DNA of 64,000 nucleotides from Eledone cirrhosa (lineage: Eukaryota). Location of the stretch: the NCBI GenBank assembly GCA_964016885.1, contig CAXHJY010000868.1, positions 1 through 64,000 of the forward strand. The letters are read 5' to 3'. A program made the position numbers and the translations under genes. Below the pieces are notes generated by a model, which worked only from the letters and a program-made list of their open reading frames with translations, had not been told where the DNA came from and did not search any database. Numbering within the stretch: position 1 is the stretch's first letter; every line of letters begins with the position of its first letter. Of the stretch, positions 28,812 through 64,000 are shown piece after piece.

Positions 28812-28852
<41 letters not shown>

Positions 28853-32424: not shown

Positions 32425-32512
32425 CAGGGCTGCGGAGTCGGCCAAAAATTGACTGGCTCCAACTCAGGATCCGATATTCCCTTATTTCCTAAATTTCAGC
32501 TCCGCAGCTCTG
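32425..32512. mobile_element. hAT-like MITE
   Basis: TIRs cagggctgcggag / ctccgcagctctg, with 8-bp flanks gtattata / ttattata (one mismatch). Confidence 0.7.
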
Positions 32513-40018: not shown

Positions 40019-40031
40019 CCATTATTATTAT

Positions 40032-40075
<44 letters not shown>

Positions 40076-40696
40076 TAGAAGAACACTTCATTCGATCTCA
40101 GTGGAAAATAGATACTTTTCTTCGGGGTGGGGCTTTTTGGAGGGGGGGGGGGGGGTACTATCAACTAATCTGACCTCCTAGGTGATCGTAATCAACTTTT
40201 TTTTCATAGATGTGGGTCAGGGTTATGGTTGGAGTTAGTGTTAAGGTTAGGGTTTCTGTTTTCCGGGGGGGGGGGGGGGTCGATAGCACATGAACAAATG
40301 GAAGAAAAATAGTTATTTACCACCAAACGTGGTGAGGGTGTAGATCTGCAAAACTCCGATAGTGTTTCTGCCTCTTTTCCCCCTTTTTCTACAAAGCTAA
40401 TCATTTCTGATAGGTCTGGAGGTCATATTCGTTGATAACATGCTAAAAAATTAAAAAACCGTGAAAAAAAGATGATTGTGAGCATCTTGGAGATTAGATT
40501 AGTTGATAGCACATGAAAAAAAATTCTCTCGTTGGAGGTGAAAATTTATATTATTCCTGTTGTTTTTGATACATTTTGAATGAATCTGGCATACAAAACC
40601 ATTGCAAATTGTTTGTTTTTTAGTTGATTGGAGGATAGGACACAGAGTGTAATTGATATGAAAATTATATATGAGCAATTTCCCTTGGGCTATCAA

Positions 40697-42308: not shown

Positions 42309-42569
42309 TAATTTTAAAAATGGGATCTTCAACATCAACTCTTATAGAAAATAAGAGAAAGTCATTGAATCAGGAGATTGTAAATCTCCTGAAGAAATAT
42401 CCAAAAGGTATTAAAAAATCAAATTTTTGGAATGTTGTGAACCATAATATAAAAGAAGTTGAATCAAATATAAGTTACGGTGTGACAAATATGGACGAAT
42501 TGTTTGACATTTATAAAAATCTTGAAATTGTCTCAAAGGATAATATTTCATATGTGAAGTTAAAACCAG
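42309..42569 (+). CDS. LOTUS/OST-HTH-like exon, copy 1 (diverged; candidate start ATG at 42320, MGSSTS...)
   Basis: Acceptor tttttcag ends at 42308 and donor CCAG|gtttgt follows 42569. The exon is 261 nt, phase 1-1, with an open frame. The protein LNQEIVNLLKKYPKGI...FW...SYGVTNMDELFDIY..L..V....YVKL fits the LOTUS helix-helix-YG-helix-strand pattern. Confidence 0.75.
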
Positions 42570-44029
42570 GTTTGTAAATATTTATTACTTTCCATATGTT
42601 ACTTTTATAAGAAGAGAAGTTCCAACTATGTGGCTAAAACATACAACAACAATACCATTCATTGTTAATTTCACCATTTATATTTTATGTATTAAATATT
42701 TGTTATTTTCGTAAAAGGACAGAAATTTGGGGTAAGGGGTAAAATTGACTCTTATCATCCTCAATATATTACCAGTACTTTATTTTATTGACCTCTCACT
42801 GATGAAAGACAAAGTTGACCTTGGTGGGAGTTGAACTGTGAACATAAAATTTGAAAGTAAATACCACAAAGTATTTATTCCAATGCGCTAATGACACTGC
42901 CAATGACCTGCCATGACAATTTCTGTAATAATTGTTTCTATTTTTGGTACAAGCTGAGCAATTTAAAGGGAAAAAGAAAGTCAATTAAATTGACTCCATT
43001 GCATTACTGGTATTTTATATAATTCAAACTCTTAATGATGAAAAAGTTAAACTAACACTGGCAGAATTTAAAGTAAGAACATGAAAGTCTGTAACTATAT
43101 ACCACAAAGTACATTGTTAAATTCACTACCAATACTGCCAATCCACCACCCTAGGGTCTCTAATAATAATAATAATTTTTATTTTGTAACAAGACCACCT
43201 ATTTTAGTAAGAATTGTAGTTGATCAATTTCAATACTTCACTAATACTTATTTTATCAACCCTGAAATACTGAAAGATAAAATCAATCTGCACATATTTA
43301 AATACAGAATAAAAATAACATACAACTAAATACTCTACCAATTCTGCTATTCCCCATCATATGATAATAATTATATCAATGATATCTTATTAATATAGCA
43401 AATGAGAGTTTTATAGGCGAATAATGAGAATCAAACAAACTCTATATAATTGTTTCTACTTTTGGCACAAGGCCAGCAATTATCTCAGTGTATTACTGGT
43501 ACTTTATTTTATCGACCCCGTAAGGATGAAAGGCAAAGTTAATCTCGGCGGGATTTGAACTTAGAGCGTAAAGGGCCGTGACTCTATCCTGCAAAACATA
43601 GTGTCCGACTCTCTACTGATACTGCCAAATGTTGTCTAGTTCTTATTGCTGATTATGGCTGTAAAAGAATTAAACAAAAACTTCTGGACATGGAAGTGAA
43701 ACCTAGGATGAAGAGGTCTTAAAGTAAACTTAAGAGAGACCAATATTTTAGTATGTAAAGAAGAAGGCAGGACCTTGCCATAATTGTGGAAATATCTGTT
43801 CTTGATATGTAGAATATAAGAAGGTAAAATAGTATCTATATACCACAGAGGATGTTATCCAATGGTCTACCAACACTACCACTCCACCCCCTTGGGTCTC
43901 CAATAGTAATAATAGTGAAGAACAGATTGTATAATGTTCTATGGTAGCAAGACATGGGCCTTAAGTGACAAAGATTAACCATAGCTAGGTAGATATAAAT
44001 TAATAGAAATATTTTCTCATATTTTTCAG

Positions 44030-44290
44030 TAACATTTCAAATGGAAACTCCATTATTATGTGACATAGAAGAAAGAAGGATGTGGTTAAATAAGGAGATT
44101 GTAAATCTTTTGAAGACATATTCAAAAGGTATAGAAATATCTAATTTTTGGAATATTGTGAACCATTATATAAAAGGAGTTGAATCAAATGACAGTTATG
44201 GTGTGACAAATATGAACGAATTGTTTAAATATTATGAAAATCTTGAAATTGTCTCAGAGAATAATATTTCATATGTGAAATTAAAATCAG
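44030..44290 (+). CDS. LOTUS-like exon, copy 2
   Basis: tttttcag|TAACATTTCAAATG ... TCAG|gtttgt; 261 nt, phase 1-1, no internal stop. Confidence 0.72.
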
Positions 44291-45100
44291 GTTTGTAAAT
44301 ATTTATTATTTTCTATGTTATTTTATGAGAAGAAAAGTTCCAACTATGTGGCTAAAAAAACCCAGCAATGCCATTGATCGTTAATTTCATTTTTTATAAG
44401 AGGAATTTGTAGTTTCCTTGAAACATTTTGTATGGTATATAGAATTTGAAGTTTCAAACCTACATCAATGCGAAATAGATGGATAAAGAGGTTCCATGCA
44501 ACCAGATGTTATGTATTTTACCTGAATTTATTTATATATCCTGATACTTCGAGATTAAAATCTCATCTTCTGAGAAAAATAAAAGGGACTAATCCAGTGT
44601 TTGATGGAACAGGCTATACCTATGTATTAAATATTTCTAATTTTGGTAAAAACATAAATTTGCAGAAAAGGGTAAAGTTGACTATATGATCCTCAATATT
44701 TTACTGGTACTTTATTTTATTGAGCCTCAATGATGAAAGACAAAGTTGACCTTGGTGGGATTTGAACTCTGAACATAAAATGTTGAAAGTAAATACCACA
44801 AAGTATTTATTCCAATGCGCTAATGACCTGCCATGACAATTTCTGTAATAATTGTTTCTATTTTTGGTACAAGCTGAGCAATTTAAAGGGGAAAGAAAGT
44901 CAATTAAATTGACTCCAGTGCATTACTGGTATTGTATATAATTCAAACTCTTAATGATGAAAAAGTTAAATTTACACTGGCAGAATTTAAAGTAAGAACA
45001 TGAAAGTCTGTAACTACATACCACAAAGTACATTGTTAAATTCACTACCAATACTGCCAATCCACCACCCTAGGGTCTCTAATAATAATAATAATTTTTA

Positions 45101-45593
45101 GTAAAACCTACTACAGTCAGTAGGCATCTCTAACAAAATACACCCCGTCCCACCACCCCCACCCCACCCACACCGCCCCTTTCAATGTAAAGTTATGTTG
45201 GTGCCACAACATCCAGGCCGAAACAAATGAGATCGTGTAGGTGTCACGACAAAAAAAACACACAGTCCACGCTGTAATGTGACTGTGTAGGCAACACGGT
45301 AAAAACCTCCCAGTCCCACACTGTAAATGTGGTTGGTGTTAGGAAGGGCATCCAGCTGTAGAAAACCTGCCAGACAGTCCACGCTGTAATGTGGCCGTGT
45401 AGGCAACACGGTAAAAACCTCCCAGCCCCACACTGTAAATGTGGTTGGTGTTAGGAAGGGCAACCAACTGTAGAAAACACGCCAGTCAGTCCTATGCGAG
45501 CAAGACAACCACTCTTGCCTCAAGTGGGAAAACTCCCATCCAAACCCATGCAACCATGGAACACGGACGTTAAACGATGATGATGATGATGAT
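45101..45593 (+). mobile_element. Insertion unique to array unit 2, ending in a SINE-like 3' part with a (GAT)n tail
   Basis: Absent from other units. Contains a duplicated ggtgttaggaagggca.cc..ctgtagaaaac motif and ends ggacgttaaacgatgatgatgatgat. Confidence 0.75.
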
Positions 45594-46445
45594 TTGTAGT
45601 TGATCAATTTCAATACTTCACTAATACTTATTTTATCAACCCTGAAATACTGAAAGATAAAATCAATCTGTACATATTTAAATACAGAATAAAAATAACA
45701 TACAACTAAATACTCTACCAATTCTGCTATTCCCCATCATATGATAATAATTATATCAATGATATCTTATTAATATAGCAAATGAGAGTTTTATAGGCGA
45801 ATAATGAGAATCAAACAAACTATCTAGTCTATATAATTGTTTCTACTTTTGGCACAAGGCCAGCAATTATCTCAGTGTATTACTGGTACTTTATTTTATC
45901 GACCCCATAAGGATGAAAGGCAAAGGTAACCTCGGCGGGATTTGTATTCAGATCATAAAGGGCCGTAACACTTTGCTGCAAAGCTTGGCGTCTGACCCTC
46001 TACCGATACTTCCGAATCCATAGTATATAATTATAGTCTATATAATGTTGTCTAGTTCTTATTGCTGATTATGGCTGTAAAAGAATTAAACAAAAACTTC
46101 TGGACATGGAAGTGAAACCTAGGATGAAGAGGTCTTAAAGTAAACTTAAGAGAGACCAATATTTTAGTATGTAAAGAAGAAGGCAGGACCTTGCCATAAT
46201 TGTGGAAATATCTGTTCTTGATATGTAGAATATAAGAAGGTAAAATAGTATCTATATACCACAGAGGATGTTATCCAATGGTCTACCAACACTACCACTC
46301 CACCCCCTTGGGTCTCCAATAGTAATAATAGTGAAGAACAGATTGTATAATGTTCTATGGTAGCAAGACATGGACCTTAAGTGACAAAGATTAACCATAG
46401 CTAGGTAGATATAAATTAATAGAAATATTTTCTCATATTTTTCAG

Positions 46446-46706
46446 TAACATTTCAAATGGAAACTCCATCATCATGTGACATAGAAGAAAGAAGGATGTG
46501 GTTAAATAAGGAGATTGTAAATCTTCTGAAGACATATCCAAAAGGTATAGAAAAATCTAATTTTTGGAATGTTGTGAACTACAATATAGATGGAGTTGAA
46601 TCAAATGACAGTTATGGTGTGACAAATATGAACGAATTGTTTAAATATTATGAAAATCTTGAAGTTGTCTCAGAGAATAATATTTCATATGTGAAATTAA
46701 AATCAG
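46446..46706 (+). CDS. LOTUS-like exon, copy 3
   Basis: Same splice signals; 261 nt; protein identical to copies 4-8. Confidence 0.72.
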
Positions 46707-47790
46707 GTTTGTAAATATTTATTATTTTCTATGTTATTTTATAAGAAGAAAAGTTCCAACTATGTGGCTAAAAAAACCCAGCAATGCCATTGATCGTTAA
46801 TTTCATTTTTTATAAGAGGAATTTGTAGTTTCCTTGAAACATTTTGTATGGTATATAGAATTTGAAGTTTCAAACCTACATCAATGCGAAATAGATGGAT
46901 AAAGAGGTTCCATGCAACCAGATGTTATGTATTTTACCTGAATTTATTTATATGTCCTAATACTTCGAGATTAAAATCTCATCTTCTGAGAAAAATAAAA
47001 GGGACTAATCCAGTATTTGATGGAACAGGCTATACCTATGTATTAAATATTTCTAATTTTGGTTAAAACAGAAATTTGCAGAAAAGGGTAAAGTTGACTA
47101 TATGATCCTCAATACTTTATTTTATTGACCCCTCAATGATGAAAGACAAAGTTGACCTTGGTGGGATTTGAACTCTGAACATAAAATGTTGAAAGTAAAT
47201 ACCACAAAGTATTTATTCCAATGCGCTAATGACACTGCCAATGACCTGCCATGACAATTTCTGTAATAATTGTTTCTATTTTTGGTACAAGCTGAGCAAT
47301 TTAAAGGGAAAAAGAAAGTCAATTAAATTGACTCCATTGCATTACTGGTATTTTATATAATTCAAACTCTTAATGATGAAAAAGTTAAATTTACACTGGC
47401 AGAATTTAAAGTAAGAACATGAAAGTCTGTAACTACATACCACAAAGTACATTGTTAAATTCACTACCAATACTGCCAATCCACCACCCTAGGGTCTCTA
47501 ATAATAATAATAATTTTTATTTTGTAACAAGACCACCTATTTTAGTAAGAATTGTAGTTGATCAATTTCAATACTTCACTAATACTTATTTTATCAACCC
47601 TGAAATACTGAAAGATAAAATCAATCTGCACATATTTAAATACAGAATAAAAATAACATACAACTAAATACTCTACCAATTCTGCTATTCCCCATCATAT
47701 GATAATAATTATATCAATGATATCTTATTAATATAGCAAATGAGAGTTTTATAGGCGAATAATGAGAATCAAACAAACTGTCTAGTCTAT

Positions 47791-47971
47791 ATAATTGTTT
47801 CTACTTTTGGCACAAGGCCAGCAATTATCTCAGTGTATTACTGGTACTTTATTTTATCGACCCCATAAGGATGAAAGGCAAAGTTAACCTCGGCGGGATT
47901 TGTATTCAGATCATAAAGGGCCGTAACTCTTTGCTGCAAGGCATGGCGTCTGACCCTCTACCGATACTGCC
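47791..47971 (-). mobile_element. SINE (main family) carried in each array intron; representative copy
   Basis: Reverse complement of the 11145 family; recurs at 1968-bp steps. Confidence 0.85.
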
Positions 47972-48402
47972 GATCCATAGTATATAATTATAGTCTATAT
48001 AATGTTGTCTAGTTCTTATTGCTGATTATGGCTGTAAAAGAATTAAACAAAAACTTCTGGACATGGAAGTGAAACCTAGGATGAAGAGGTCTTAAAGTAA
48101 ACTTAAGAGAGACCAATATTTTAGTATGTAAAGAAGAAGGCAGGACCTTGCCATAATTGTGGAAATATCTGTTCTTGATATGTAGAATATAAGAAGGTAA
48201 AATAGTATCTATATACCACAGAGGATGTTATCCAATGGTCTACCAACACTACCACTCCACCCCCTTGGGTCTCCAATAGTAATAATAGTGAAGAACAGAT
48301 TGTATAATGTTCTATGGTAGCAAGACATGGGCCTTAAGTGACAAAGATTAACCATAGCTAGGTAGATATAAATTAATAGAAATATTTTCTCATATTTTTC
48401 AG

Positions 48403-48663
48403 TAACATTTCAAATGGAAACTCCATCATCATGTGACATAGAAGAAAGAAGGATGTGGTTAAATAAGGAGATTGTAAATCTTCTGAAGACATATCCAAAA
48501 GGTATAGAAAAATCTAATTTTTGGAATGTTGTGAACTACAATATAGATGGAGTTGAATCAAATGACAGTTATGGTGTGACAAATATGAACGAATTGTTTA
48601 AATATTATGAAAATCTTGAAGTTGTCTCAGAGAATAATATTTCATATGTGAAATTAAAATCAG
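48403..48663 (+). CDS. LOTUS-like exon, copy 4
   Basis: Same splice signals; 261 nt; phase 1-1. Confidence 0.72.
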
Positions 48664-50370
48664 GTTTGTAAATATTTATTATTTTCTATGTTATTTTATA
48701 AGAAGAAAAGTTCCAACTATGTGGCTAAAAAAACCCAGCAATGCCATTGATCGTTAATTTCATTTTTTATAAGAGGAATTTGTAGTTTCCTTGAAACATT
48801 TTGTATGGTATATAGAATTTGAAGTTTCAAACCTACATCAATGCGAAATAGATGGATAAAGAGGTTCCATGCAACCAGATGTTATGTATTTTACCTGAAT
48901 TTATTTATATGTCCTAATACTTCGAGATTAAAATCTCATCTTCTGAGAAAAATAAAAGGGACTAATCCAGTGTTTGATGGAACAGGCTATACCTATGTAT
49001 TAAATATTTCTAATGTTGGTTAAAACAGAAATTTGCAGAAAAGGGTAAAGTTGACTATATGATCCTCAATATTTTACTGGTACTTTATTTTATTGACCCC
49101 TCAATGATGAAAGACAAAGTTGACCTTGGTGGGATTTGAACTCTGAACATAAAATGTTGAAAGTAAATACCACAAAGTATTTATTCCAATGCGCTAATGA
49201 CACTGCCAATGACCTGCCATGACAATTTCTGTAATAATTGTTTCTATTTTTGGTACAAGCTGAGCAATTTAAAGGGAAAAAGAAAGTCAATTAAATTGAC
49301 TCCATTGCATTACTGGTATTTTATATAATTCAAACTCTTAATGATGAAAAAGTTAAATTTACACTGGCAGAATTTAAAGTAAGAACATGAAAGTCTGTAA
49401 CTACATACCACAAAGTACATTGTTAAATTCACTACCAATACTGCCAATCCACCACCCTAGGGTCTCTAATAATAATAATAATTTTTATTTTGTAACAAGA
49501 CCACCTATTTTAGTAAGAATTGTAGTTGATCAATTTCAATACTTCACTAATACTTATTTTATCAACCCTGAAATACTGAAAGATAAAATCAATCTGCACA
49601 TATTTAAATACAGAATAAAAATAACATACAACTAAATACTCTACCAATTCTGCTATTCCCCATCATATGATAATAATTATATCAATGATATCTTATTAAT
49701 ATAGCAAATGAGAGTTTTATAGGCGAATAATGAGAATCAAACAAACTGTCTAGTCTATATAATTGTTTCTACTTTTGGCACAAGGCCAGCAATTATCTCA
49801 GTGTATTACTGGTACTTTATTTTATCGACCCCATAAGGATGAAAGGCAAAGTTAACCTCGGCGGGATTTGTATTCAGATCATAAAGGGCCGTAACTCTTT
49901 GCTGCAAGGCATGGCGTCTGACCCTCTACCGATACTGCCGATCCATAGTATATAATTATAGTCTATATAATGTTGTCTAGTTCTTATTGCTGATTATGGC
50001 TGTAAAAGAATTAAACAAAAACTTCTGGACATGGAAGTGAAACCTAGGATGAAGAGGTCTTAAAGTAAACTTAAGAGAGACCAATATTTTAGTATGTAAA
50101 GAAGAAGGCAGGACCTTGCCATAATTGTGGAAATATCTGTTCTTGATATGTAGAATATAAGAAGGTAAAATAGTATCTATATACCACAGAGGATGTTATC
50201 CAATGGTCTACCAACACTACCACTCCACCCCCTTGGGTCTCCAATAGTAATAATAGTGAAGAACAGATTGTATAATGTTCTATGGTAGCAAGACATGGGC
50301 CTTAAGTGACAAAGATTAACCATAGCTAGGTAGATATAAATTAATAGAAATATTTTCTCATATTTTTCAG

Positions 50371-50631
50371 TAACATTTCAAATGGAAACTCCATCATCAT
50401 GTGACATAGAAGAAAGAAGGATGTGGTTAAATAAGGAGATTGTAAATCTTCTGAAGACATATCCAAAAGGTATAGAAAAATCTAATTTTTGGAATGTTGT
50501 GAACTACAATATAGATGGAGTTGAATCAAATGACAGTTATGGTGTGACAAATATGAACGAATTGTTTAAATATTATGAAAATCTTGAAGTTGTCTCAGAG
50601 AATAATATTTCATATGTGAAATTAAAATCAG
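50371..50631 (+). CDS. LOTUS-like exon, copy 5
   Basis: Same splice signals; 1968 bp after copy 4. Confidence 0.72.
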
Positions 50632-52338
50632 GTTTGTAAATATTTATTATTTTCTATGTTATTTTATAAGAAGAAAAGTTCCAACTATGTGGCTAAAAAA
50701 ACCCAGCAATGCCATTGATCGTTAATTTCATTTTTTATAAGAGGAATTTGTAGTTTCCTTGAAACATTTTGTATGGTATATAGAATTTGAAGTTTCAAAC
50801 CTACATCAATGCGAAATAGATGGATAAAGAGGTTCCATGCAACCAGATGTTATGTATTTTACCTGAATTTATTTATATGTCCTAATACTTCGAGATTAAA
50901 ATCTCATCTTCTGAGAAAAATAAAAGGGACTAATCCAGTGTTTGATGGAACAGGCTATACCTATGTATTAAATATTTCTAATTTTGGTTAAAACAGAAAT
51001 TTGCAGAAAAGGGTAAAGTTGACTATATGATCCTCAATATTTTACTGGTACTTTATTTTATTGACCCCTCAATGATGAAAGACAAAGTTGACCTTGGTGG
51101 GATTTGAACTCTGAACATAAAATGTTGAAAGTAAATACCACAAAGTATTTATTCCAATGCGCTAATGACACTGCCAATGACCTGCCATGACAATTTCTGT
51201 AATAATTGTTTCTATTTTTGGTACAAGCTGAGCAATTTAAAGGGAAAAAGAAAGTCAATTAAATTGACTCCATTGCATTACTGGTATTTTATATAATTCA
51301 AACTCTTAATGATGAAAAAGTTAAATTTACACTGGCAGAATTTAAAGTAAGAACATGAAAGTCTGTAACTACATACCACAAAGTACATTGTTAAATTCAC
51401 TACCAATACTGCCAATCCACCACCCTAGGGTCTCTAATAATAATAATAATTTTTATTTTGTAACAAGACCACCTATTTTAGTAAGAATTGTAGTTGATCA
51501 ATTTCAATACTTCACTAATACTTATTTTATCAACCCTGAAATACTGAAAGATAAAATCAATCTGCACATATTTAAATACAGAATAAAAATAACATACAAC
51601 TAAATACTCTACCAATTCTGCTATTCCCCATCATATGATAATAATTATATCAATGATATCTTATTAATATAGCAAATGAGAGTTTTATAGGCGAATAATG
51701 AGAATCAAACAAACTGTCTAGTCTATATAATTGTTTCTACTTTTGGCACAAGGCCAGCAATTATCCCAGTGTATTACTGGTACTTTATTTTATCGACCCC
51801 ATAAGGATGAAAGGCAAAGTTAACCTCGGCGGGATTTGTATTCAGATCATAAAGGGCCGTAACTCTTTGCTGCAAGGCATGGCGTCTGACCCTCTACCGA
51901 TACTGCCGATCCATAGTATATAATTATAGTCTATATAATGTTGTCTAGTTCTTATTGCTGATTATGGCTGTAAAAGAATTAAACAAAAACTTCTGGACAT
52001 GGAAGTGAAACCTAGGATGAAGAGGTCTTAAAGTAAACTTAAGAGAGACCAATATTTTAGTATGTAAAGAAGAAGGCAGGACCTTGCCATAATTGTGGAA
52101 ATATCTGTTCTTGATATGTAGAATATAAGAAGGTAAAATAGTATCTATATACCACAGAGGATGTTATCCAATGGTCTACCAACACTACCACTCCACCCCC
52201 TTGGGTCTCCAATAGTAATAATAGTGAAGAACAGATTGTATAATGTTCTATGGTAGCAAGACATGGGCCTTAAGTGACAAAGATTAACCATAGCTAGGTA
52301 GATATAAATTAATAGAAATATTTTCTCATATTTTTCAG

Positions 52339-52599
52339 TAACATTTCAAATGGAAACTCCATCATCATGTGACATAGAAGAAAGAAGGATGTGGTTAAAT
52401 AAGGAGATTGTAAATCTTCTGAAGACATATCCAAAAGGTATAGAAAAATCTAATTTTTGGAATGTTGTGAACTACAATATAGATGGAGTTGAATCAAATG
52501 ACAGTTATGGTGTGACAAATATGAACGAATTGTTTAAATATTATGAAAATCTTGAAGTTGTCTCAGAGAATAATATTTCATATGTGAAATTAAAATCAG
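52339..52599 (+). CDS. LOTUS-like exon, copy 6
   Basis: Same splice signals; 1968 bp after copy 5. Confidence 0.72.
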
Positions 52600-54306
52600 G
52601 TTTGTAAATATTTATTATTTTCTATGTTATTTTATAAGAAGAAAAGTTCCAACTATGTGGCTAAAAAAACCCAGCAATGCCATTGATCGTTAATTTCATT
52701 TTTTATAAGAGGAATTTGTAGTTTCCTTGAAACATTTTGTATGGTATATAGAATTTGAAGTTTCAAACCTACATCAATGCGAAATAGATGGATAAAGAGG
52801 TTCCATGCAACCAGATGTTATGTATTTTACCTGAATTTATTTATATGTCCTAATACTTCGAGATTAAAATCTCATCTTCTGAGAAAAATAAAAGGGACTA
52901 ATCCAGTGTTTGATGGAACAGGCTATACCTATGTATTAAATATTTCTAATTTTGGTTAAAACAGAAATTTGCAGAAAAGGGTAAAGTTGACTATATGATC
53001 CTCAATATTTTACTGGTACTTTATTTTATTGACCCCTCAATGATGAAAGACAAAGTTGACCTTGGTGGAATTTGAACTCTGAACATAAAATGTTGAAAGT
53101 AAATACCACAAAGTATTTATTCCAATGCGCTAATGACACTGCCAATGACCTGCCATGACAATTTCTGTAATAATTGTTTCTATTTTTGGTACAAGCTGAG
53201 CAATTTAAAGGGAAAAAGAAAGTCAATTAAATTGACTCCATTGCATTACTGGTATTTTATATAATTCAAACTCTTAATGATGAAAAAGTTAAATTTACAC
53301 TGGCAGAATTTAAAGTAAGAACATGAAAGTCTGTAACTACATACCACAAAGTACATTGTTAAATTCACTACCAATACTGCCAATCCACCACCCTAGGGTC
53401 TCTAATAATAATAATAATTTTTATTTTGTAACAAGACCACCTATTTTAGTAAGAATTGTAGTTGATCAATTTCAATACTTCACTAATACTTATTTTATCA
53501 ACCCTGAAATACTGAAAGATAAAATCAATCTGCACATATTTAAATACAGAATAAAAATAACATACAACTAAATACTCTACCAATTCTGCTATTCCCCATC
53601 ATATGATAATAATTATATCAATGATATCTTATTAATATAGCAAATGAGAGTTTTATAGGCGAATAATGAGAATCAAACAAACTGTCTAGTCTATATAATT
53701 GTTTCTACTTTTGGCACAAGGCCAGCAATTATCTCAGTGTATTACTGGTACTTTATTTTATCGACCCCATAAGGATGAAAGGCAAAGTTAACCTCGGCGG
53801 GATTTGTATTCAGATCATAAAGGGCCGTAACTCTTTGCTGCAAGGCATGGCGTCTGACCCTCTACCGATACTGCCGATCCATAGTATATAATTATAGTCT
53901 ATATAATGTTGTCTAGTTCTTATTGCTGATTATGGCTGTAAAAGAATTAAACAAAAACTTCTGGACATGGAAGTGAAACCTAGGATGAAGAGGTCTTAAA
54001 GTAAACTTAAGAGAGACCAATATTTTAGTATGTAAAGAAGAAGGCAGGACCTTGCCATAATTGTGGAAATATCTGTTCTTGATATGTAGAATATAAGAAG
54101 GTAAAATAGTATCTATATACCACAGAGGATGTTATCCAATGGTCTACCAACACTACCACTCCACCCCCTTGGGTCTCCAATAGTAATAATAGTGAAGAAC
54201 AGATTGTATAATGTTCTATGGTAGCAAGACATGGGCCTTAAGTGACAAAGATTAACCATAGCTAGGTAGATATAAATTAATAGAAATATTTTCTCATATT
54301 TTTCAG

Positions 54307-54567
54307 TAACATTTCAAATGGAAACTCCATCATCATGTGACATAGAAGAAAGAAGGATGTGGTTAAATAAGGAGATTGTAAATCTTCTGAAGACATATCC
54401 AAAAGGTATAGAAAAATCTAATTTTTGGAATGTTGTGAACTACAATATAGATGGAGTTGAATCAAATGACAGTTATGGTGTGACAAATATGAACGAATTG
54501 TTTAAATATTATGAAAATCTTGAAGTTGTCTCAGAGAATAATATTTCATATGTGAAATTAAAATCAG
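54307..54567 (+). CDS. LOTUS-like exon, copy 7
   Basis: Same splice signals; 1968 bp after copy 6. Confidence 0.72.
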
Positions 54568-56274
54568 GTTTGTAAATATTTATTATTTTCTATGTTATTT
54601 TATAAGAAGAAAAGTTCCAACTATGTGGCTAAAAAAACCCAGCAATGCCATTGATCGTTAATTTCATTTTTTATAAGAGGAATTTGTAGTTTCCTTGAAA
54701 CATTTTGTATGGTATATAGAATTTGAAGTTTCAAACCTACATCAATGCGAAATAGATGGATAAAGAGGTTCCATGCAACCAGATGTTATGTATTTTACCT
54801 GAATTTATTTATATGTCCTAATACTTCGAGATTAAAATCTCATCTTCTGAGAAAAATAAAAGGGACTAATCCAGTGTTTGATGGAACAGGCTATACCTAT
54901 GTATTAAATATTTCTAATGTTGGTTAAAACAGAAATTTGCAGAAAAGGGTAAAGTTGACTATATGATCCTCAATATTTTACTGGTACTTTATTTTATTGA
55001 CCCCTCAATGATGAAAGACAAAGTTGACCTTGGTGGGATTTGAACTCTGAACATAAAATGTTGAAAGTAAATACCACAAAGTATTTATTCCAATGCGCTA
55101 ATGACACTGCCAATGACCTGCCATGACAATTTCTGTAATAATTGTTTCTATTTTTGGTACAAGCTGAGCAATTTAAAGGGAAAAAGAAAGTCAATTAAAT
55201 TGACTCCATTGCATTACTGGTATTTTATATAATTCAAACTCTTAATGATGAAAAAGTTAAATTTACACTGGCAGAATTTAAAGTAAGAACATGAAAGTCT
55301 GTAACTACATACCACAAAGTACATTGTTAAATTCACTACCAATACTGCCAATCCACCACCCTAGGGTCTCTAATAATAATAATAATTTTTATTTTGTAAC
55401 AAGACCACCTATTTTAGTAAGAATTGTAGTTGATCAATTTCAATACTTCACTAATACTTATTTTATCAACCCTGAAATACTGAAAGATAAAATCAATCTG
55501 CACATATTTAAATACAGAATAAAAATAACATACAACTAAATACTCTACCAATTCTGCTATTCCCCATCATATGATAATAATTATATCAATGATATCTTAT
55601 TAATATAGCAAATGAGAGTTTTATAGGCGAATAATGAGAATCAAACAAACTGTCTAGTCTATATAATTGTTTCTACTTTTGGCACAAGGCCAGCAATTAT
55701 CTCAGTGTATTACTGGTACTTTATTTTATCGACCCCATAAGGATGAAAGGCAAAGTTAACCTCGGCGGGATTTGTATTCAGATCATAAAGGGCCGTAACT
55801 CTTTGCTGCAAGGCATGGCGTCTGACCCTCTACCGATACTGCCGATCCATAGTATATAATTATAGTCTATATAATGTTGTCTAGTTCTTATTGCTGATTA
55901 TGGCTGTAAAAGAATTAAACAAAAACTTCTGGACATGGAAGTGAAACCTAGGATGAAGAGGTCTTAAAGTAAACTTAAGAGAGACCAATATTTTAGTATG
56001 TAAAGAAGAAGGCAGGACCTTGCCATAATTGTGGAAATATCTGTTCTTGATATGTAGAATATAAGAAGGTAAAATAGTATCTATATACCACAGAGGATGT
56101 TATCCAATGGTCTACCAACACTACCACTCCACCCCCTTGGGTCTCCAATAGTAATAATAGTGAAGAACAGATTGTATAATGTTCTATGGTAGCAAGACAT
56201 GGGCCTTAAGTGACAAAGATTAACCATAGCTAGGTAGATATAAATTAATAGAAATATTTTCTCATATTTTTCAG

Positions 56275-56535
56275 TAACATTTCAAATGGAAACTCCATCA
56301 TCATGTGACATAGAAGAAAGAAGGATGTGGTTAAATAAGGAGATTGTAAATCTTCTGAAGACATATCCAAAAGGTATAGAAAAATCTAATTTTTGGAATG
56401 TTGTGAACTACAATATAGATGGAGTTGAATCAAATGACAGTTATGGTGTGACAAATATGAACGAATTGTTTAAATATTATGAAAATCTTGAAGTTGTCTC
56501 AGAGAATAATATTTCATATGTGAAATTAAAATCAG
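56275..56535 (+). CDS. LOTUS-like exon, copy 8
   Basis: Same splice signals; 1968 bp after copy 7. Confidence 0.72.
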
Positions 56536-58243
56536 GTTTGTAAATATTTATTATTTTCTATGTTATTTTATAAGAAGAAAAGTTCCAACTATGTGGCTAA
56601 AAAAACCCAGCAATGCCATTGATCGTTAATTTCATTTTTTATAAGAGGAATTTGTAGTTTCCTTGAAACATTTTGTATGGTATATAGAATTTGAAGTTTC
56701 AAACCTACATCAATGCGAAATAGATGGATAAAGAGGTTCCATGCAACCAGATGTTATGTATTTTACCTGAATTTATTTATATGTCCTAATACTTCGAGAT
56801 TAAAATCTCATCTTCTGAGAAAAATAAAAGGGACTAATCCAGTGTTTGATGGAACAGGCTATACCTATGTATTAAATATTTCTAATTTTGGTTAAAACAG
56901 AAATTTGCAGAAAAGGGTAAAGTTGACTATATGATCCTCAATATTTTACTGGTACTTTATTTTATTGACCCCTCAATGATGAAAGACAAAGTTGACCTTG
57001 GTGGGATTTGAACTCTGAACATAAAATGTTGAAAGTAAATACCACAAAGTATTTATTCCAATGCGCTAATGACACTGCCAATGACCTGCCATGACAATTT
57101 CTGTAATAATTGTTTCTATTTTTGGTACAAGCTGAGCAATTTAAAGGGAAAAAGAAAGTCAATTAAATTGACTCCATTGCATTACTGGTATTTTATATAA
57201 TTCAAACTCTTAATGATGAAAAAGTTAAATTTACACTGGCAGAATTTAAAGTAAGAACATGAAAGTCTGTAACTACATACCACAAAGTACATTGTTAAAT
57301 TCACTACCAATACTGCCAATCCACCACCCTAGGGTCTCTAATAATAATAATAATTTTTATTTTGTAACAAGACCACCTATTTTAGTAAGAATTGTAGTTG
57401 ATCAATTTCAATACTTCACTAATACTTATTTTATCAACCCTGAAATACTGAAAGATAAAATCAATCTGCACATATTTAAATACAGAATAAAAATAACATA
57501 CAACTAAATACTCTACCAATTCTGCTTTTCCCCATCATATGATAATAATTATATCAATGATATCTTATTAATATAGCAAATGAGAGTTTTATAGGCGAAT
57601 AATGAGAATCAAACAAACTATCTAGTCTATATAATTGTTTCTACTTTTGGCACAAGGCCAGCAATTATCCCAGTGTATTACTGGTACTTTATTTTATCGA
57701 CCCCGTAAGGATGAAAGGCAAAGTTAATCTCGGCGGGATTTGAATTCAGATCATAAAGGGCCGTAACACTTTGCTGCAAAGCATGGCGTCTGACCCTCTA
57801 CCGATACTTCCGAATCCATAGTATATAATTATAGTCTATATAATGTTGTCTAGTTCTTATTGCTGATTATGGCTGTAAAAGAATTAAACAAAAACTTCTG
57901 GACATGGAAGTGAAACCTAGGATGAAGAGGTCTTAAAGTAAACTTAAGAGAGACCAATATTTTAGTATGTAAAGAAGAAGGCAGGACCTTGCCATAATTG
58001 TGGAAATATCTGTTCTTGATATGTAGAATATAAGAAGGTAAAATAGTATCTATATACCACAGAGGATGTTATCCAATGGTCTACCAACACTACCACTCCA
58101 CCCCCTTGGGTCTCCAATAGTAATAATAGTGAAGAACAGATTGTATAATGTTCTATGGTAGCAAGACATGGGCCTTAAGTGACAAAGATTAACCATAGCT
58201 AGGTAGATATAAATTAATAGAAATATTTTCTCATATTTTTCAG

Positions 58244-58504
58244 TAACATTTCAAATGGAAACTCCATCATCATGTGACATAGAAGAAAGAAGGATGTGGT
58301 TAAATCAGGAGATTGTAAATCTTTTGAAGACATATCCAAAAGGTATAGAAAAATCTATTTTTTGGGATGTTGTGAACCATAATATAGATGGAGTTGAACC
58401 AAATCACAGATATGGTGTTAAGAATCTAAAGGAATTGTTTGACATTTATGAAAATCTTGAAATTGTCTCAGAGAATAATTTTTCGTATGTGAAATTAAAA
58501 CCAG
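58244..58504 (+). CDS. LOTUS-like exon, copy 9 (diverged 3' half)
   Basis: Acceptor tttttcag and donor CCAG|gtttgt at 58504/58505; 261 nt. The intronic TAA after the donor is lost, which explains the longer 150-aa ORF call. Confidence 0.75.
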
Positions 58505-58770
58505 GTTTGTTAACATTTATTACTTTCCATGTTACTTTTATACGAAGAAAAGTTCCAACTATGTGGCTAAAAAAAACAGCAATGCCATTGATCGTTAATT
58601 TCATTTTTTATAAGAGGATTTTGGCCTACCAACACTGCCACTCCACCACCCTTGGGTCTCCAATAGTAATAATAGTAAAGAACAGATTGTATAATGTTCT
58701 ATGGTAGCAAGACATGGGCCTTAATTTAGGTATATATAAATTAATAGAAATATTTTCTCATATTTTTCAG

Positions 58771-59028
58771 TAACATTTCAAATGGAGACTCCAGCATCAC
58801 TGATAGAAGAGAAGAGAAAGTCATTAAATCAGCAGATTGTAAAACTCCTGAAGATATATCCAAAAGGTATAAAAAAACGCCTCTTTTGGAATACTGTTAT
58901 GCAAAAAATAAAAGGAGTTGAATCAAATGACAGTTATGGTGTGACAAATATGAACGAATTATTTAAATATTATGAAAATCTTAAAGTTGTCTCAGAGAAT
59001 AATATTTCATATGTGAAATTAAAATCAG
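58771..59028 (+). CDS. LOTUS-like exon, copy 10 (258 nt, diverged 5' half)
   Basis: Acceptor ends at 58770 and donor TCAG|gtttgt follows 59028. It is one codon shorter than the others, with the frame preserved. Confidence 0.75.
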
Positions 59029-59588
59029 GTTTGTAAATATTTATTACTTTCCATATGTTACTTTTATACGAAGAAAACTTCCAACTATGTGGCTAAAAAA
59101 CAACAACAATACCATTGATTGTTAATTTCACTTTTCTATATTTTATGTATTAAATATTTGTTATTTTCATAAAAGGACAGAAATATGGGGTAAGGGGTAA
59201 AGTTGACTATTTCATCCTCAATATTTTACTGCTACTTTATGTTATTGACCCCTCATTGACGAAAGACAAAGTTGACCTTGGTGGGATCTTAACTCTGAAC
59301 ATAAAAAGTTGAAAGTAAATACCACAAAGTATTTATTCCAATGCGCTAATGATACTGCCAATCACCTGCCATGACATTTTATGTAATAATAAAAATGATC
59401 TCTTTTGAAAAGGCACAATTGAATTCACTACATAGTAGAATAAATGGTGAAGTTGTTGCTGTCAGGATTTGATAAGGAGGGGAAACAGACAACTGTATGA
59501 CATTAATTAACTCAATTGCTTTTCCATTTCTTCTAACTGTGGGCTATAATATTAATAACAATTTCTTACATTGATACTAGATCACCTA

Positions 59589-59675
59589 TCATATGTGAAG
59601 TTAAAATCAAGTTTGTAAATATTTGCTACTTTCTATATGTTACTTTTGTGAGGATAAAAATCCCAACTGTGTGGG
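59589..59675 (+). pseudogene. Relic 3' end of an additional LOTUS-like exon plus the start of its intron
   Basis: tcatatgtgaagttaaaatcaagtttgtaaatatttgctactttct...cccaactgtgtgg matches the exon end and downstream intron of the array units; the 5' part is missing. Confidence 0.7.
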
Positions 59676-59760
59676 TAAGATTTTTGCTTTGCTCAATTTG
59701 TGCATTTAGTTGACATATTTTTTTCCTTTCATTGAACTGTATTTTTATTTTTATTTCCAG

Positions 59761-61109
59761 GTAATAAAACCAGAATGGTAAATAAACCCAGTTTTGAAGA
59801 TCTTAAAAAGGTCATATGTGAAGTTCTTGATAAACACAGAAGTAAAATAAAACGTGAACATTTTTGGAATAAAGTGGCTGAGAGGCAAGGACATGTTATC
59901 AACCCTAAAGATTATGGTTTCAATAATTTATATGAATTACTGAAACAACTTTCTGATGTGCTGATAGAGGTGGCTGAAAAGAATGAACTATATGTAAAAA
60001 AGAAAACTTCAAGTGATTCCAATAAACCATCTGCTGAGAAAAGCTCATCCTACTTAGGAGACAACATATATAATTTTCCATCACTTAATGAAACTATACA
60101 AAGTGACCCATCAAAACCATCTCTAGTTGAAATTAGACAAAGATTCTGTGACATTGTTGTGAACTCACCCCAGGGTTTATCACTGCAGCTATTGATGGAA
60201 TTCTATAATAGAAAATATCAAAAGTCACCATTTAACTTTCAAGATTATAATGTCAGTAATTCTGAAGAATTTTTTAAGTTGCCTGAATTTCGATGTTTTA
60301 ATGTTTTAATACAGAACAATACAATAATGGTTTATTTAAAAGGACACAATTCTTCCCAAAATATGTTTCCGTTAGTTAATCAAATGCAAGCTCCTAAATG
60401 GGGTGAACCAGCATTCCCCCTCAGGCAACAACCTGTTCCTAATTTACAACATGTTACTGATAGTTTTCATCTTGCTCCTTTTTCCAAACTCCCTCCACCA
60501 AAAACAAATGAAAAAGAAATTGTAATACCTCCCTTAAATATTGCTCCTGGGGAGACACTGTCTAAAGAACAGCTTGATAAAATAGCCAAAGAATGTATTG
60601 AAATACTTGCTGATAATAAGGAATATGTATCTGCTCAAGCTATTGAAAATCTTTTCCTTAAACGTCTTAGAAAGAGAAATATGCGTGAAGTTGGTATCCG
60701 TAATTTAGATTATTTGCCTTCAGTTCATGAGCATAACCGTATGGCATCTAAAGTAAATGCTTATATTCAAGCCTTTGTGACAGTTCGGTCTGTATGCACA
60801 CTGAAAGAACTAGAAGAATGTGTTACACTTTATGTGAACGAAAGCAATTCCTTTCAAAGTTTAAAACTGGGTCCTTTTCATAAGATGCAAATTATTTTTG
60901 ATTTGTTTAAATTTCCTCCTGGTGAAGAAAGCTACCCAGACCTTACTACAATGGATATTTTAGATAATATAAGAAATTTCCTTAATGAGAATAATTGGTA
61001 TAAGAAACACGAAATGCCAGAAGTTATGTCTTATTTGACAAAAGCTTTTTATTACAATGATCCATTTCAACTTGGGATTCGCTTGAAAAGCCTCCCACTT
61101 GCTATTGGG
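59761..61109 (+). CDS. Large exon of a NO VEIN (NOV)-like protein: two LOTUS-like domains, a Pro-rich linker and a NOV N-terminal-like region
   Basis: Strong polypyrimidine acceptor (ttttatttttttatttccag, phase 1) and donor GGG|gtaagg (phase 0); 452-aa ORF. EYVSAQAIE...LPSVHEHNRMASKVNAYIQAFVTVRSVCTLKELE...FQSLKLGPFHKMQIIFDLF resembles, from memory, the NOV N-terminal motif VSAW...KINAFIHCFVGVRRITSLYDLE...FEELELGPL. Confidence 0.85.
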
Positions 61110-61216
61110 GTAAGGATATCTTTGTTTATTTAAATATTGGAATTGTTTTACCTATTTTTATTCCAGTGTTAATTCTTTCTATTTTAAATACATTTATACA
61201 ATGTCATCTGTTACAG

Positions 61217-61670
61217 GTCTTAAAACGTGCTCAAAAAGATGATTCAGCCCTTACCAGGAAAGTCTTTGATGATATGAAGTTCAAATTAACTGAAGAAATA
61301 CAAAGCGCTTTCAATAAATTCCGTGGCTATATTCTTGCAACAAAACAAAATGAAACATATTTGAAGAAGCACTATGCTAAAATGTCAGCTGATGCTGCTC
61401 TAAAAGAGATATTTGAACGGCTGTGCTTGTTGCTTGAAAATTATGAACCTAGAACTATATTTGAACAGAAACAAAAAAGAAAATTTATAGAGATTTCTAA
61501 TAATTTCTTTCAGCAAATAAGTAGTCATGATCTAGCTAAGACTGTGTTTCATGTTGCTATTTGTGTCACTACTACTGAACTACAAGCAATTACCCTGGAA
61601 TTCTTAAAGCCAAGATCTCAGCCCTCAACTGATCACTCTAACAAAGTTAAAATTCCTCCTCCTCGAAAAG
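61217..61670 (+). CDS. Next coding exon of the NOV-like gene (helical region)
   Basis: A 107-nt intron (61110-61216, gtaagg...ttacag) joins in phase 0 (LPLAIG|VLKRAQ). Donor AAAG|gtaaga at 61671 (phase 1). The gene continues past the window. Confidence 0.85.
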
Positions 61671-62239
61671 GTAAGATTTTGAAATATGATTTTAATAGGG
61701 CAACTTCTAAATTTTTAACTATTGTTATTGTTAGGTGCCTATAGCCCTGATTCAACTATATACTACTTCTATATATTAACTGTGGACTATTTTCCTACTA
61801 AAATTGAGAGGAGAGTTGGCTGTCTAGATAGAATACTAGACAACTAGGTAAGAGATTGTTTGCATCTTGGCATTGTGTCCACTACAAAAACTCTGATGTA
61901 TTTCTGCTTGAAATTCTACAAACTCACACAATAAAATGAGTTATCTTTTGCCTTGTGTCAAAGAAGCCTTTTAAAACATTTATTGATAAACATCTTGTGG
62001 ATAAACATGTCCTAATGATTCAATTTTAACAATTTCTATGCAGTTTTTAGGAGATATAATAAATGCTGTAGAAATAATTTTGTTTGCTTCAGAATGTAAT
62101 ATATAATTTGTTTTATAAAACCTGTTCTTAAAATGTAACGGAAACAAAAAATAATATTGATGTAGAAAACCAGCAGTATGAAATATGAATGCATACAACA
62201 AACAAGAAATTAAATATTAAGGTAAAAATAAAAAACGGT

Positions 62240-62570
62240 GGCATGTACCCCATCACAGTAGGTAATGTCTTCTGGAGGCTTGCAACTAAGATCATCTGCA
62301 AGTCTATTGCACCAGAGATAGGTGTGGAACTCAGCCCAGTGCAGCTGGGGGTCGGTGTGGCCAGCAGGTGCGAGGGACCTGCCCACACTGCTAAACAGTT
62401 CATTCCAAACTCTCTTCCCAAGCCGGTGCCAATTGATCCTAGGATCTCATTGTCAAACTTGACATGAGAAATGCCTTCAATTGGTTGCGCCTTGCCTCAG
62501 CCGTGCCTTGTCTACCAACTCACTGGCCTACCTGCTATATGGGTCCCCAAGCATGCTCCTCACTGCATAC
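62240..62570 (+). mobile_element. CRE/NeSL-like RT N-terminal fragment
   Basis: PITVGNVFWRLATK...SPVQLGVGV...CEG..H, then KLDMRNAFN. Confidence 0.75.
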
Positions 62571-62727
62571 AACAATTACTCTTTAATTGGTATATCCAGT
62601 GTTTCATATAGCTCATTTAATATATAAATATTAGCTAGACAATGGTGTATTTACAAAACACAGTAGGTGTTGTAGGAAAGAAGTATATTTTTTTTAATGA
62701 TTTGCCCTATCTCTATTCAATTTTAGA

Positions 62728-64000
62728 GTCCTGAAAGCCCAGTGATATTTATATTATGGCTTCAATCTCAGGATAAAGTGGGAAGCATTGGTGCATAAGG
62801 ATGTCAGGACAAAATATGCAGATACTATTGCATTCAAATTCATAGAACTCCCTGAGCAAACTGAGGACGTTGGGACAGAGTGGAGATTGTTCAGTACAGC
62901 AGTGTCTGCTTCAGCTGTTAAATGCTGCGGGTGAAAGAGGCTTGGTGTGATGTCGGATGGCAGGAAGACTCTTTGGTTCAATCAAGAAGTCAAAGATGCC
63001 ACCCAAGAAAAGAAGAAGGCTTACAAAGCTTAACTTGGAAGTAAGTTAAGTTGGAATCTGACTTCAGATCAGCAAATAAAGTGTTCTAGCAGACCATCCA
63101 CCAACTTCATATTAAGAAGCCCTCCTCCACACCTGCTATCAAGAACACGTCTGGGGTTCTCATCTCTTCAGATAGGTGCATCCTCGCGAGGTGGAGATAA
63201 TACTTTGCTGATCTCCTAAACCTGATCACAACAGCATCTTTGGATGTACACAAGGAGCATCTGGGAACATGACTAATCTCTCAGAGGCTGAGGTCACAAG
63301 AGCAGTTAAAGAGCTCAAATGTGGCAAAGCTGCTGGAGAAGATGAAATCTGGCCTGGGGTGTTAAAAGCCTTAACTAAAGAAGGTATTTTGTGTTTGACT
63401 CCTTTGTGCTAGGTGGCCTGGATCTCTGGAAAGACACCTAAGCAATTGGGAGTCTATGCAAAATGTCTTGCAAAGAGATTCAGGGAGATTGTCGAGTCCA
63501 AGCTAGCTGATAAACAGTGTGGTTTTCACTCAGGACAGCAGAGCCAACTAAATATTCACACTGCAGCAAGTATTCAACAAATTATTGGAGTATTGCCAAG
63601 AAGTATATTTTCTTTTGTCGACTTCGAGAAGGCATATGACCATGTTCCTCAGGACCTACTGTGGAAGGCTGTGCAGGAGTATGGGATTGATGGTCAGCTT
63701 CTTGCTGCCCTGATGTCTTTATATGAATGACCAAGTACTAGTGTTTGGATAAATAGTGCTAAATCGAAACCATTCAATGTGGGAGTCAGACTCCACCAAG
63801 GGTGCATACTGTCACCTCTCCTGTTTATTATTTACATGAACAGGATTGACATGCACAGCTGGGTTGGAAGTGGTATCACAACTGGCAGGTGTAAAATCAG
63901 TCAGCTGGAATTTGAAGATGACTTAACTTGACAGATGATCTTCAACTTGCACTTGATAGGTTTGATGCCAAGTGCTGCTTGGTTGGAATGAAAATCAGGG
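62728..64000 (+). mobile_element. Degenerate RTE-clade LINE in the NOV-like intron
   Basis: GKAAGEDEI, QCGFHSG, FVDFEKAYDHVP, GLHQGCILSPLLF and FEDD-like motifs; many stops. Confidence 0.85.

What the first reader, a model, noticed from the sequence alone, without database searches (positions are those of the whole stretch)
42309..59790. Each repeat exon has its own ATG and an intronic stop: concatenated, cassette or alternative-start use are all possible
Every copy has an ATG 11 nt after the acceptor in a good context (aaaATGG / caaATGG), and the large exon has one 14 nt after its acceptor (agaATGG). Reading through the donor gives GGT TTG TAA, so intron retention yields a free 84-85-aa single-domain protein (except copy 9). 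Because all the exons are phase 1-1, any subset can be skipped without a frameshift. The locus could therefore make isoforms with 2-12 LOTUS modules, use one variable exon at a time (as in Dscam or clustered protocadherins), or produce solo LOTUS decoys. This is inference from exon geometry only.
Basis: inference. Interest (0 to 1): 0.75.

Follow-up and report, generated by a model that had tools for sequence, protein, structure and literature searches.

The report
Twelve-LOTUS NO VEIN paralog, nuclease broken
Ten tandem copies of the start-codon exon of an octopus-type NO VEIN/Tiamat gene are likely spliced end to end into one long chain of predicted RNA-binding domains on a duplicate gene that appears to have lost its nuclease, so the repeated start codons are inherited leftovers rather than a Dscam-like choice system.

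Summary
The geometry is confirmed: 10 of 10 exons are phase 1-1 with an ATG at +11, 9 of 10 read GGT TTG TAA through the donor, and the large exon has an ATG at +14. The exon folds like a LOTUS domain. The gene is an animal NO VEIN/Tiamat homologue. A second, intact copy on chromosome-scale contig C8 and the Argonauta protein each have this module once, as the start, so every duplicate inherited the ATG; the large-exon Met is not conserved in Argonauta. One public run that behaves as RNA has contigs whose lengths match exon-to-exon splicing exactly (upstream exon to c1, c1 to c2, c3-type to c3-type) and not one-exon-at-a-time use or intron retention; this rests on lengths, the letters were not shown. 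Copies 3-8 are identical, so there is no diversity to choose from. The window's gene is likely a paralog spread over three unplaced contigs, with intact ATPase exons but two stops before the nuclease and a frameshift within it. Best reading: a concatenated, up to 12-LOTUS, nuclease-less NOV paralog. Skipping and minor isoforms are untested.

The parts
42309..42569 (+). Repeat exon c1, first coding exon (likely start ATG 42320); ortholog of the single small exon of the C8 copy
   Evidence: shares about 165 nt of upstream intron with C8 (83%), exon 80.6%. X4 record 25 covers it with unaligned letters on both sides.
44030..44290 (+). Repeat exon c2
   Evidence: 12 differences from c3; c1>c2 junction inferred from 58 letters.
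46446..46706 (+). Repeat exon c3 (identical to c4-c8), LOTUS-like winged helix
   Evidence: model pLDDT 74.5; best structural matches TDRD5, TDRD7, MARF1 LOTUS; X4 record 28.
48403..56535 (+). Repeat exons c4-c8 (48403-48663, 50371-50631, 52339-52599, 54307-54567, 56275-56535) in 1968-bp near-identical units
58244..58504 (+). Repeat exon c9 (no early intronic stop; 5' end like c3, 3' half diverged)
58771..59028 (+). Repeat exon c10 (258 nt; 3' end identical to c3)
59589..59667 (+). Truncated 11th copy: last 22 nt of the exon plus intron start, exon end changed
59761..61109 (+). Large exon: LOTUS, second weak LOTUS-like repeat, conserved NOV N-terminal region; internal Met at 59775
   Evidence: Pfam PF12872 28 bits, above cut-off; second repeat E 0.017 only; 98.5% to C8.
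61217..61670 (+). Next NOV exon; the gene continues beyond the window on C895, then likely on C259 and C206
   Evidence: X4 records 31-32 carry this copy's letters.

Best explanation
The ten exons are tandem duplicates of the start-codon exon of an octopod NO VEIN/Tiamat gene and are likely spliced end to end, which would give one protein with up to 12 LOTUS-type domains ahead of the NOV body and ATPase. SHOWN: a second copy of the gene on C8 has this exon once; the Argonauta protein starts with the same module and joins the next LOTUS with a linker of the same length; the 11 joined exons of the window are one open frame; the module folds like LOTUS. INFERRED: translation starts at the c1 ATG and the other ATGs and the intronic TAA are passengers of repeated unequal crossing-over. 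INFERRED by parsimony: C895, C259 and C206 are one paralog whose frame ends at the equivalent of residue 2421 of 2754, before the nuclease. Likely role (untested): a nuclease-less, multivalent RNA-binding NOV paralog under relaxed constraint.
For: Single small exon on C8. Argonauta NO VEIN-like GAB1610178.1 begins with the module, 66% identical to the C8 exon, and has the same linker length. X4 has a contig spliced at exact C8 exon ends with GT-AG introns of 272 and 496 nt, absent from the 3 DNA runs. X4 record 25 has 58 letters after the c1 end and record 28 is 291 nt starting at exon position 29. Of 8 transcript models simulated, the two concatenated ones give 58, and the simplified one gives both numbers; none of the other 6 gives 58. 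No stop in 6 distinct exon variants: 0 of 1500 neutral simulations, and about 0.001 or less from the minimum 111 changes. The joined exons are 1315 codons with no stop. CAG|GTTTGT-type donors occur at 2 of 25 ordinary NOV introns. Copy-2 exons 0-24 have no stop or frameshift; the next short exon is open; exon 25 has two stops; the last exon has a 16-nt deletion after YIEV.
Against: The RNA evidence is one run, not on record as RNA, as assembled contigs whose unaligned letters were not shown. The 291-nt loop would also arise from a c3-type>c9 junction or from a one-exon circle, and it does not count exons per transcript. No record was shown for c9, c10 or the c10>large-exon junction. Amino-acid constraint is weak: pN/pS 0.65 among array exons vs 0.91 +/- 0.21 neutral (p = 0.057), and 0.75 between the two gene copies (37 synonymous, 102 nonsynonymous), so the paralog may be decaying. 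The three contigs do not overlap. The small exon has no Pfam LOTUS hit (0 of 5 window variants; C8 exon), and the twelfth domain is weak.
Confidence: 0.72

Rival explanations
1. Transcribed but non-functional duplicate: the array is a by-product of repeat expansion in an unstable region, and the message is a decaying (possibly NMD-targeted) pseudogene transcript.
For: Copy-2 introns are inflated (54.7 vs 23.9 kb; 38.0 vs 8.9 kb) with more tandem repeat (0.20 and 0.56 vs 0.08 and 0.33). Stops and frameshift at the 3' end. pN/pS 0.75. C8 exons 26-27 not found in the fetched parts of copy 2.
Against: No stop or frameshift in 26 consecutive body exons or in 6 array variants that differ by up to 21%; splice sites kept; copy-2 letters are present in X4. 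The body's intactness is weak evidence because it is 97-100% identical to C8 over most exons.
Confidence: 0.3
2. Concatenation with regulated or stochastic in-frame skipping, giving a ladder of LOTUS counts.
For: All exons are phase 1-1 with identical splice sites, so skipping keeps the frame.
Against: The one c1 record shown fits c1>c2 (58 letters), not c1>c3 or c9 (27), c10 (173) or the large exon. Symmetric exons are common in this gene: 8 of 24 internal C8 exons. Skips among identical c3-c8 cannot be seen in short-read contigs, so this rival is untested there.
Confidence: 0.2
3. Dscam-, sDscam- or protocadherin-like use of one exon or one start at a time.
For: Tandem 5' cassettes, each with an ATG, in front of a constant region resemble sDscam and clustered Pcdh in layout (PMC4835542, passages read).
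Against: Mutually exclusive models predict 20-27 letters after c1 and a 260-nt c3 record; observed 58 and 291. Six exons are identical. c1's acceptor is used by an upstream exon. Only simple-repeat complements between unique flanks and the unit. Unit introns are 30-35% GC with no CpG-rich stretch.
Confidence: 0.05
4. Solo 84-85 aa LOTUS decoys made by intron retention or intronic polyadenylation.
For: Stop two codons into the intron in 9 of 10 copies; AATAAA hexamers exist in the introns.
Against: The two array records shown end at the donor and do not run into the intron. Early stops after donors are ordinary, AATAAA density is background, and only the first ATG of a transcript would normally be used (general knowledge).
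Confidence: 0.06
5. C895 is the other allele (haplotig) of the C8 gene, so 10 vs 1 exons is allelic variation.
For: Most body exons and shared intron blocks are 97-100% identical; C8-specific and C895-specific contigs have similar depth (about 6-11 vs 5-17).
Against: No non-repeat match between 42 kb upstream of c1 and C8, or between 50 kb downstream on C206 and C8. The gene ends are only 81-92% identical. No single-copy depth baseline was obtained.
Confidence: 0.12

Closest known systems
Animal NO VEIN / eukaryotic Tiamat with N-terminal LOTUS (bioRxiv 10.64898/2026.09.30.754977 and .755639; Argonauta hians GAB1610178.1)
   Same: NOV N-terminal region, sacsin/GHKL ATPase exons matching PADLOC TmtA, N-terminal LOTUS modules; the C8 copy also has NOV_C. 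61% identity of the C8 model to the Argonauta protein over 2822 columns.
   Different: Up to 12 LOTUS-type modules, against three in the C8 copy and Argonauta (by alignment) and four reported for zebrafish; one exon per added module, very recent expansion; nuclease likely lost.
Type VIII-A Tiamat-like proteins (eukaryotic, LOTUS present, PD-(D/E)xK nuclease absent; section 21 of the Tiamat preprint)
   Same: LOTUS N-terminus, ATPase kept, nuclease missing.
   Different: Here the broken nuclease exon is still visible beside an intact paralog, and the LOTUS number is amplified.
MARF1 and TDRD5/7 tandem LOTUS arrays
   Same: Tandem LOTUS domains; best structural matches. Eight in mammalian MARF1, proposed to raise RNA binding (PMC7498356, passages).
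   Different: Those arrays are old and diverged (recalled); this one has six identical exon copies and a different catalytic body.
sDscam, clustered protocadherins, Dscam1
   Same: Tandem 5' cassettes in front of a constant region.
   Different: No sign of one-at-a-time use, separate promoters or sequence diversity; cassettes appear joined to each other.
NBPF/Olduvai exon-unit expansions (PMC9313022, search listing only)
   Same: Recent tandem gain of exon-plus-intron units that lengthens one protein.
   Different: Unrelated domain and gene.

Membership tests
NO VEIN / Tiamat (strict) | GHKL/sacsin-type ATPase domain | tested here: met
   C895 exon matches PF25794 (23.4 bits, below cut-off as a single exon) and PADLOC TmtA E 1e-28; following exons 95-100% identical to C8.
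NO VEIN / Tiamat (strict) | C-terminal NOV_C PD-(D/E)xK nuclease | tested here: not met
   Met for the C8 copy (PF13020 71.5 bits). For the window's copy: two stops upstream and a 16-nt deletion in the motif on C206, if the three contigs are one gene.
NO VEIN / Tiamat (strict) | Eukaryotic NOV N-terminal region | tested here: met
   Clam full-length NOV P0013 residues 359-750 align to window 60405-61684, E 1e-54.
Type VIII-A Tiamat-like | LOTUS fusion, ATPase, no nuclease | tested here: met
   conditional on contig linkage. The preprint's HMM-score criterion was not applied.
LOTUS domain | Winged-helix LOTUS fold | tested here: met
   Top three of 48,161 chains are LOTUS domains: Z 9.1 (rmsd 3.1, 79 aligned), 8.2, 7.6; Foldseek had no match at E <= 0.001 but listed LOTUS chains among the top rows. 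Single-sequence model.
LOTUS domain | Pfam PF12872 above cut-off | tested here: inconclusive
   Met for the first domain of the large exon (28 bits); no hit for the small exons, which do match that domain and molluscan NOV LOTUS by profile.
eLOTUS (Vasa-binding) | C-terminal extension helix | tested here: not met
   The model ends in the beta-hairpin; definition from PMC7498356 passages. Minimal-LOTUS type. The 11-residue linker to the next copy was not modelled.
LOTUS domain | RNA (G-rich/G4) binding | not testable with these tools
   No assay.
Dscam1-type mutually exclusive cluster | One exon per transcript | tested here: not met
   one run, lengths only.
Dscam1-type mutually exclusive cluster | Docking-site/selector pairing (feature recalled) | tested here: inconclusive
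   Only simple-repeat complements in a BLAST screen; short imperfect pairing could be missed.
Dscam1 / sDscam / clustered Pcdh | Diverged variable exons | tested here: not met
   6 of 10 exons identical; 5 distinct variants.
sDscam / clustered Pcdh | A promoter before each cassette | not testable with these tools
   No start-site data; indirect evidence against from c1's used acceptor.

The most novel reading that the evidence does not exclude
An octopod has split its NO VEIN/Tiamat into an intact nuclease copy and an expressed nuclease-dead partner whose RNA-binding end has been amplified to 12 LOTUS modules. The partner would dimerise with the intact enzyme through the near-identical ATPase body and act as a multivalent RNA sensor, condensate scaffold or brake, with module number varying between individuals or, by in-frame skipping, between isoforms.
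Probability: 0.2. Interest if true: 0.7.

Novelty: new variant of a known kind. Interest (0 to 1): 0.42.

Why it matters
Whether animal NOV/Tiamat is antiviral, and what its LOTUS domains do, is stated as open in two 2026 preprints. This genome offers a natural pair: an intact three-module copy and a likely nuclease-less copy with up to twelve modules, nearly identical in between. That makes the role of LOTUS number and of the nuclease testable in one species. The alternative-start or cassette mechanism itself is not supported; the ATG-in-every-copy pattern is what duplication of a first coding exon produces.

Tried and rejected
No RNA holder listed: none of the 4 runs is on record as RNA; X4 was judged RNA from its spliced contig. 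X4 showed little or no cover on c9, c10, most of the large exon and the C8 small exon; records can be filtered out, so this is no finding. Depth was not used to rank the two copies or to count exons. The exon upstream of c1 was not located: no non-repeat match to the C8 upstream region and no convincing shared donor. Protein searches for longer relatives found nothing; the near search gave 7 hits, the representative search 10, one of them (P0020) not aligning to NOV. My early idea that the large-exon ATG is the ancestral start (clam NOV and locus L063 begin with Met just before a LOTUS) was dropped for octopods after the Argonauta protein showed the small-exon Met conserved and the large-exon Met not. 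A fold of the first 200 residues of the large exon was submitted and had not finished, so the twelfth domain is unconfirmed. No complex prediction was run. Scan-note look-ups returned nothing. Paper searches: 'NO VEIN'+'LOTUS domain' 2 papers; 'fj29h11' 2; 'tandem exon duplication'+'octopus' 1, unrelated; 'NO VEIN'+'cephalopod' 1, unrelated; 'LOTUS domain'+'exon duplication' 0; a five-term exon-duplication search 1, unrelated. None describes this array; the preprints' supplements were not seen and may list octopod proteins.
Full report
Observation. The window is bases 1-64000 of G000:C895, a 119,226-bp contig of a 3.0-Gb genome. Exons c3-c8 are identical and sit in near-identical units of about 1968 bp. 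A truncated eleventh copy lies at 59589-59667. In three DNA runs of one sample, contigs from the repeat unit have depth 38-113 against 5-23 for neighbouring non-array contigs, so the array is not an assembly invention; this gives no copy number and the sample may be the assembly's own.

What the gene is. The large exon carries a Pfam LOTUS hit above cut-off and the NOV N-terminal region. The genome holds a second copy on C8. My corrected model of it from the large exon onward is 2754 aa without a stop, with sacsin-type ATPase exons and NOV_C that match PADLOC TmtA. The closest named protein is Argonauta hians NO VEIN-like, 61% identical, so the animal is likely an octopod. The small exon has no Pfam hit, but its single-sequence model (pLDDT 74.5) matches the LOTUS domains of TDRD5, TDRD7 and MARF1 best among 48,161 chains (Z 9.1, 8.2, 7.6) and lacks the eLOTUS helix.

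Why every copy has an ATG. The C8 copy has the small exon once, with the same acceptor, ATG offset and donor. The Argonauta protein begins with the same module (66% identical to C8's) and runs into the next LOTUS with a linker of the same length, but without a Met at the position of 59775. So the small-exon ATG is the conserved start, in a first coding exon that follows an intron, and each duplicate inherited it. c1 is the ortholog of the C8 exon, sharing upstream intron; c2-c10 begin about 21 nt before the acceptor, and c9 and c10 are mosaics, as expected from repeated unequal crossing-over (inference). The intronic stop is ordinary: 3 of 25 real NOV donors reach a stop within 2 codons and 8 within 5; GTTTGT donors occur at 2 of 25.

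How the exons are used. None of the 4 holder runs is recorded as RNA, but X4 has a contig in three pieces that end at C8 exon boundaries, skipping GT-AG introns of 272 and 496 nt that the three DNA runs do not skip. On the array, two X4 records were shown. Record 25 (363 nt) covers c1 with 40 unaligned letters upstream and 61 downstream, of which 3 are the exon's own last letters: an upstream exon is spliced to c1, and 58 letters follow it. Record 28 (291 nt) starts at position 29 of the c3-type exon and also has 58 letters after the exon end. With 31-letter words (word size taken from the tool text; the assembly behaviour is recalled), c1>c2 gives 58 letters, c1>c3 or c9 gives 27, c1>c10 173. 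Of 8 transcript models, the two concatenated ones give 58; the one with minor variants collapsed also gives the 291-nt record from position 29; mutually exclusive models give 20-27 and 260, and retention runs into the intron. The number of exon-end letters left unaligned (3 and 4) also fits a small-exon acceptor, not the large-exon one. Limits: one run, letters not shown, most joints not listed, no record shown for c9, c10 or c10>large; the loop could also come from c3-type>c9 or a one-exon circle, and skipping among identical copies is invisible.

Selection. Six distinct variants (five in the window, one on C8) differ by up to 21% yet have no stop: 0 of 1500 neutral simulations did so, and the minimum 111 changes give about 0.001 or less. 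The only exon gap between c1 and C8 is 3 nt, against gaps of 1, 5 and 5 upstream. Amino-acid constraint is weak (pN/pS 0.65 vs 0.91 +/- 0.21, p = 0.057). The joined c1-c10 plus large exon is 1315 codons without a stop, 870 more than a start at 59775.

The rest of this copy. Each NOV part searched has exactly two copies in the assembly: C8, and in order C895, C259, C206. These three contigs do not overlap, so their linkage is by parsimony. Exons 0-24 have no stop or frameshift and are 92-100% identical to C8, pN/pS 0.75; one further exon is open. Exon 25 is 82% identical with two stops, the first at the equivalent of residue 2421. C8 exons 26-27 were not found in the fetched parts, and the last exon has a 16-nt deletion in the nuclease motif. 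Neither flank matches C8, which favours a paralog over an allele. The old ends (81-92%) and young middle (97-100%) suggest gene conversion between the copies (inference). Introns are two to four times longer and richer in tandem repeats, so the array may be one case of a general expansion.

Mechanism, committed. An upstream promoter and leader exon feed c1; scanning ribosomes start at 42320; the ten modules and the large exon are read as one chain, giving up to 12 LOTUS-type domains, the NOV region, the ATPase and the middle repeats, ending before the nuclease (0.72 for concatenation with inherited ATGs; whether the protein is made and useful is roughly even). Tandem minimal LOTUS domains are proposed to raise RNA binding (PMC7498356), so the expected effect is avidity, not diversity.

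Comparison. The Tiamat preprint (10.64898/2026.09.30.754977; abstract, outline, passages, sections 15 and 21 read) reports LOTUS in 316 of 918 eukaryotic Tiamats, four in zebrafish, predicted dimerisation, and a nuclease-less LOTUS class (Type VIII-A). The NOV preprint (10.64898/2026.09.30.755639; passages) reports animal NOV and an antiviral role in a plant. sDscam cassettes each have a promoter (PMC4835542; passages). MARF1 has eight tandem LOTUS (PMC7498356; passages). PMC9313022 was seen as a listing only. Supplements of the preprints were not seen. The window's gene works like a Type VIII-A Tiamat-like protein, fails strict Tiamat membership, and is not a Dscam- or Pcdh-type cluster.

Verdict. 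What remains is a new variant of a known kind: a recently amplified, probably transcribed and concatenated LOTUS array on a likely nuclease-dead NOV paralog. Interest 0.42.

Noticed in passing
G000:C8:21712442-21757277 (-): Intact NO VEIN/Tiamat gene, 2754 aa from the large exon plus one small LOTUS exon, with one GC-AG intron.
   Followed up: yes
G000:C206:8652-9140 (+) and C259:15340-15520 (-): Decayed 3' end of the second NOV copy: two stops in one exon, frameshifting deletion in the nuclease exon.
   Followed up: yes
C895/C259/C206 versus C8: Identity is 81-92% at both gene ends and 97-100% in the middle, shared intron blocks included, while copy-2 introns are 2-4 times longer; suggests gene conversion followed by fast repeat gain.
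   Followed up: partly
window 61258-61735 and L009:3725-4176: X4 holds both versions of this exon, so both gene copies appear transcribed in that sample.
   Followed up: partly
window 14445-19473: About 40 copies of a 120-bp unit with a TG tract, beside a 2.7-kb AC-rich array at 11688-14364.
   Followed up: no
window 5973-9656, 39217-40097, 62128-63931: Broken retroelement-like reading frames (endonuclease- and reverse-transcriptase-like by eye; zf-RVT below cut-off at 39660-40094).
   Followed up: no
window 27557-32782: Two blocks (1.3 and 2.0 kb) match C259:4187-7586 at 97-98% in opposite orientation; probably a shared young repeat.
   Followed up: no
window 45093-45600: A repeat element inserted only in the c2 intron.
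   Followed up: no
P0004, P0011, P0013; P0017, P0026: Clam and ark-shell databases also list partial or additional NOV entries beside full-length ones, so NOV duplication may be common in molluscs.
   Followed up: no
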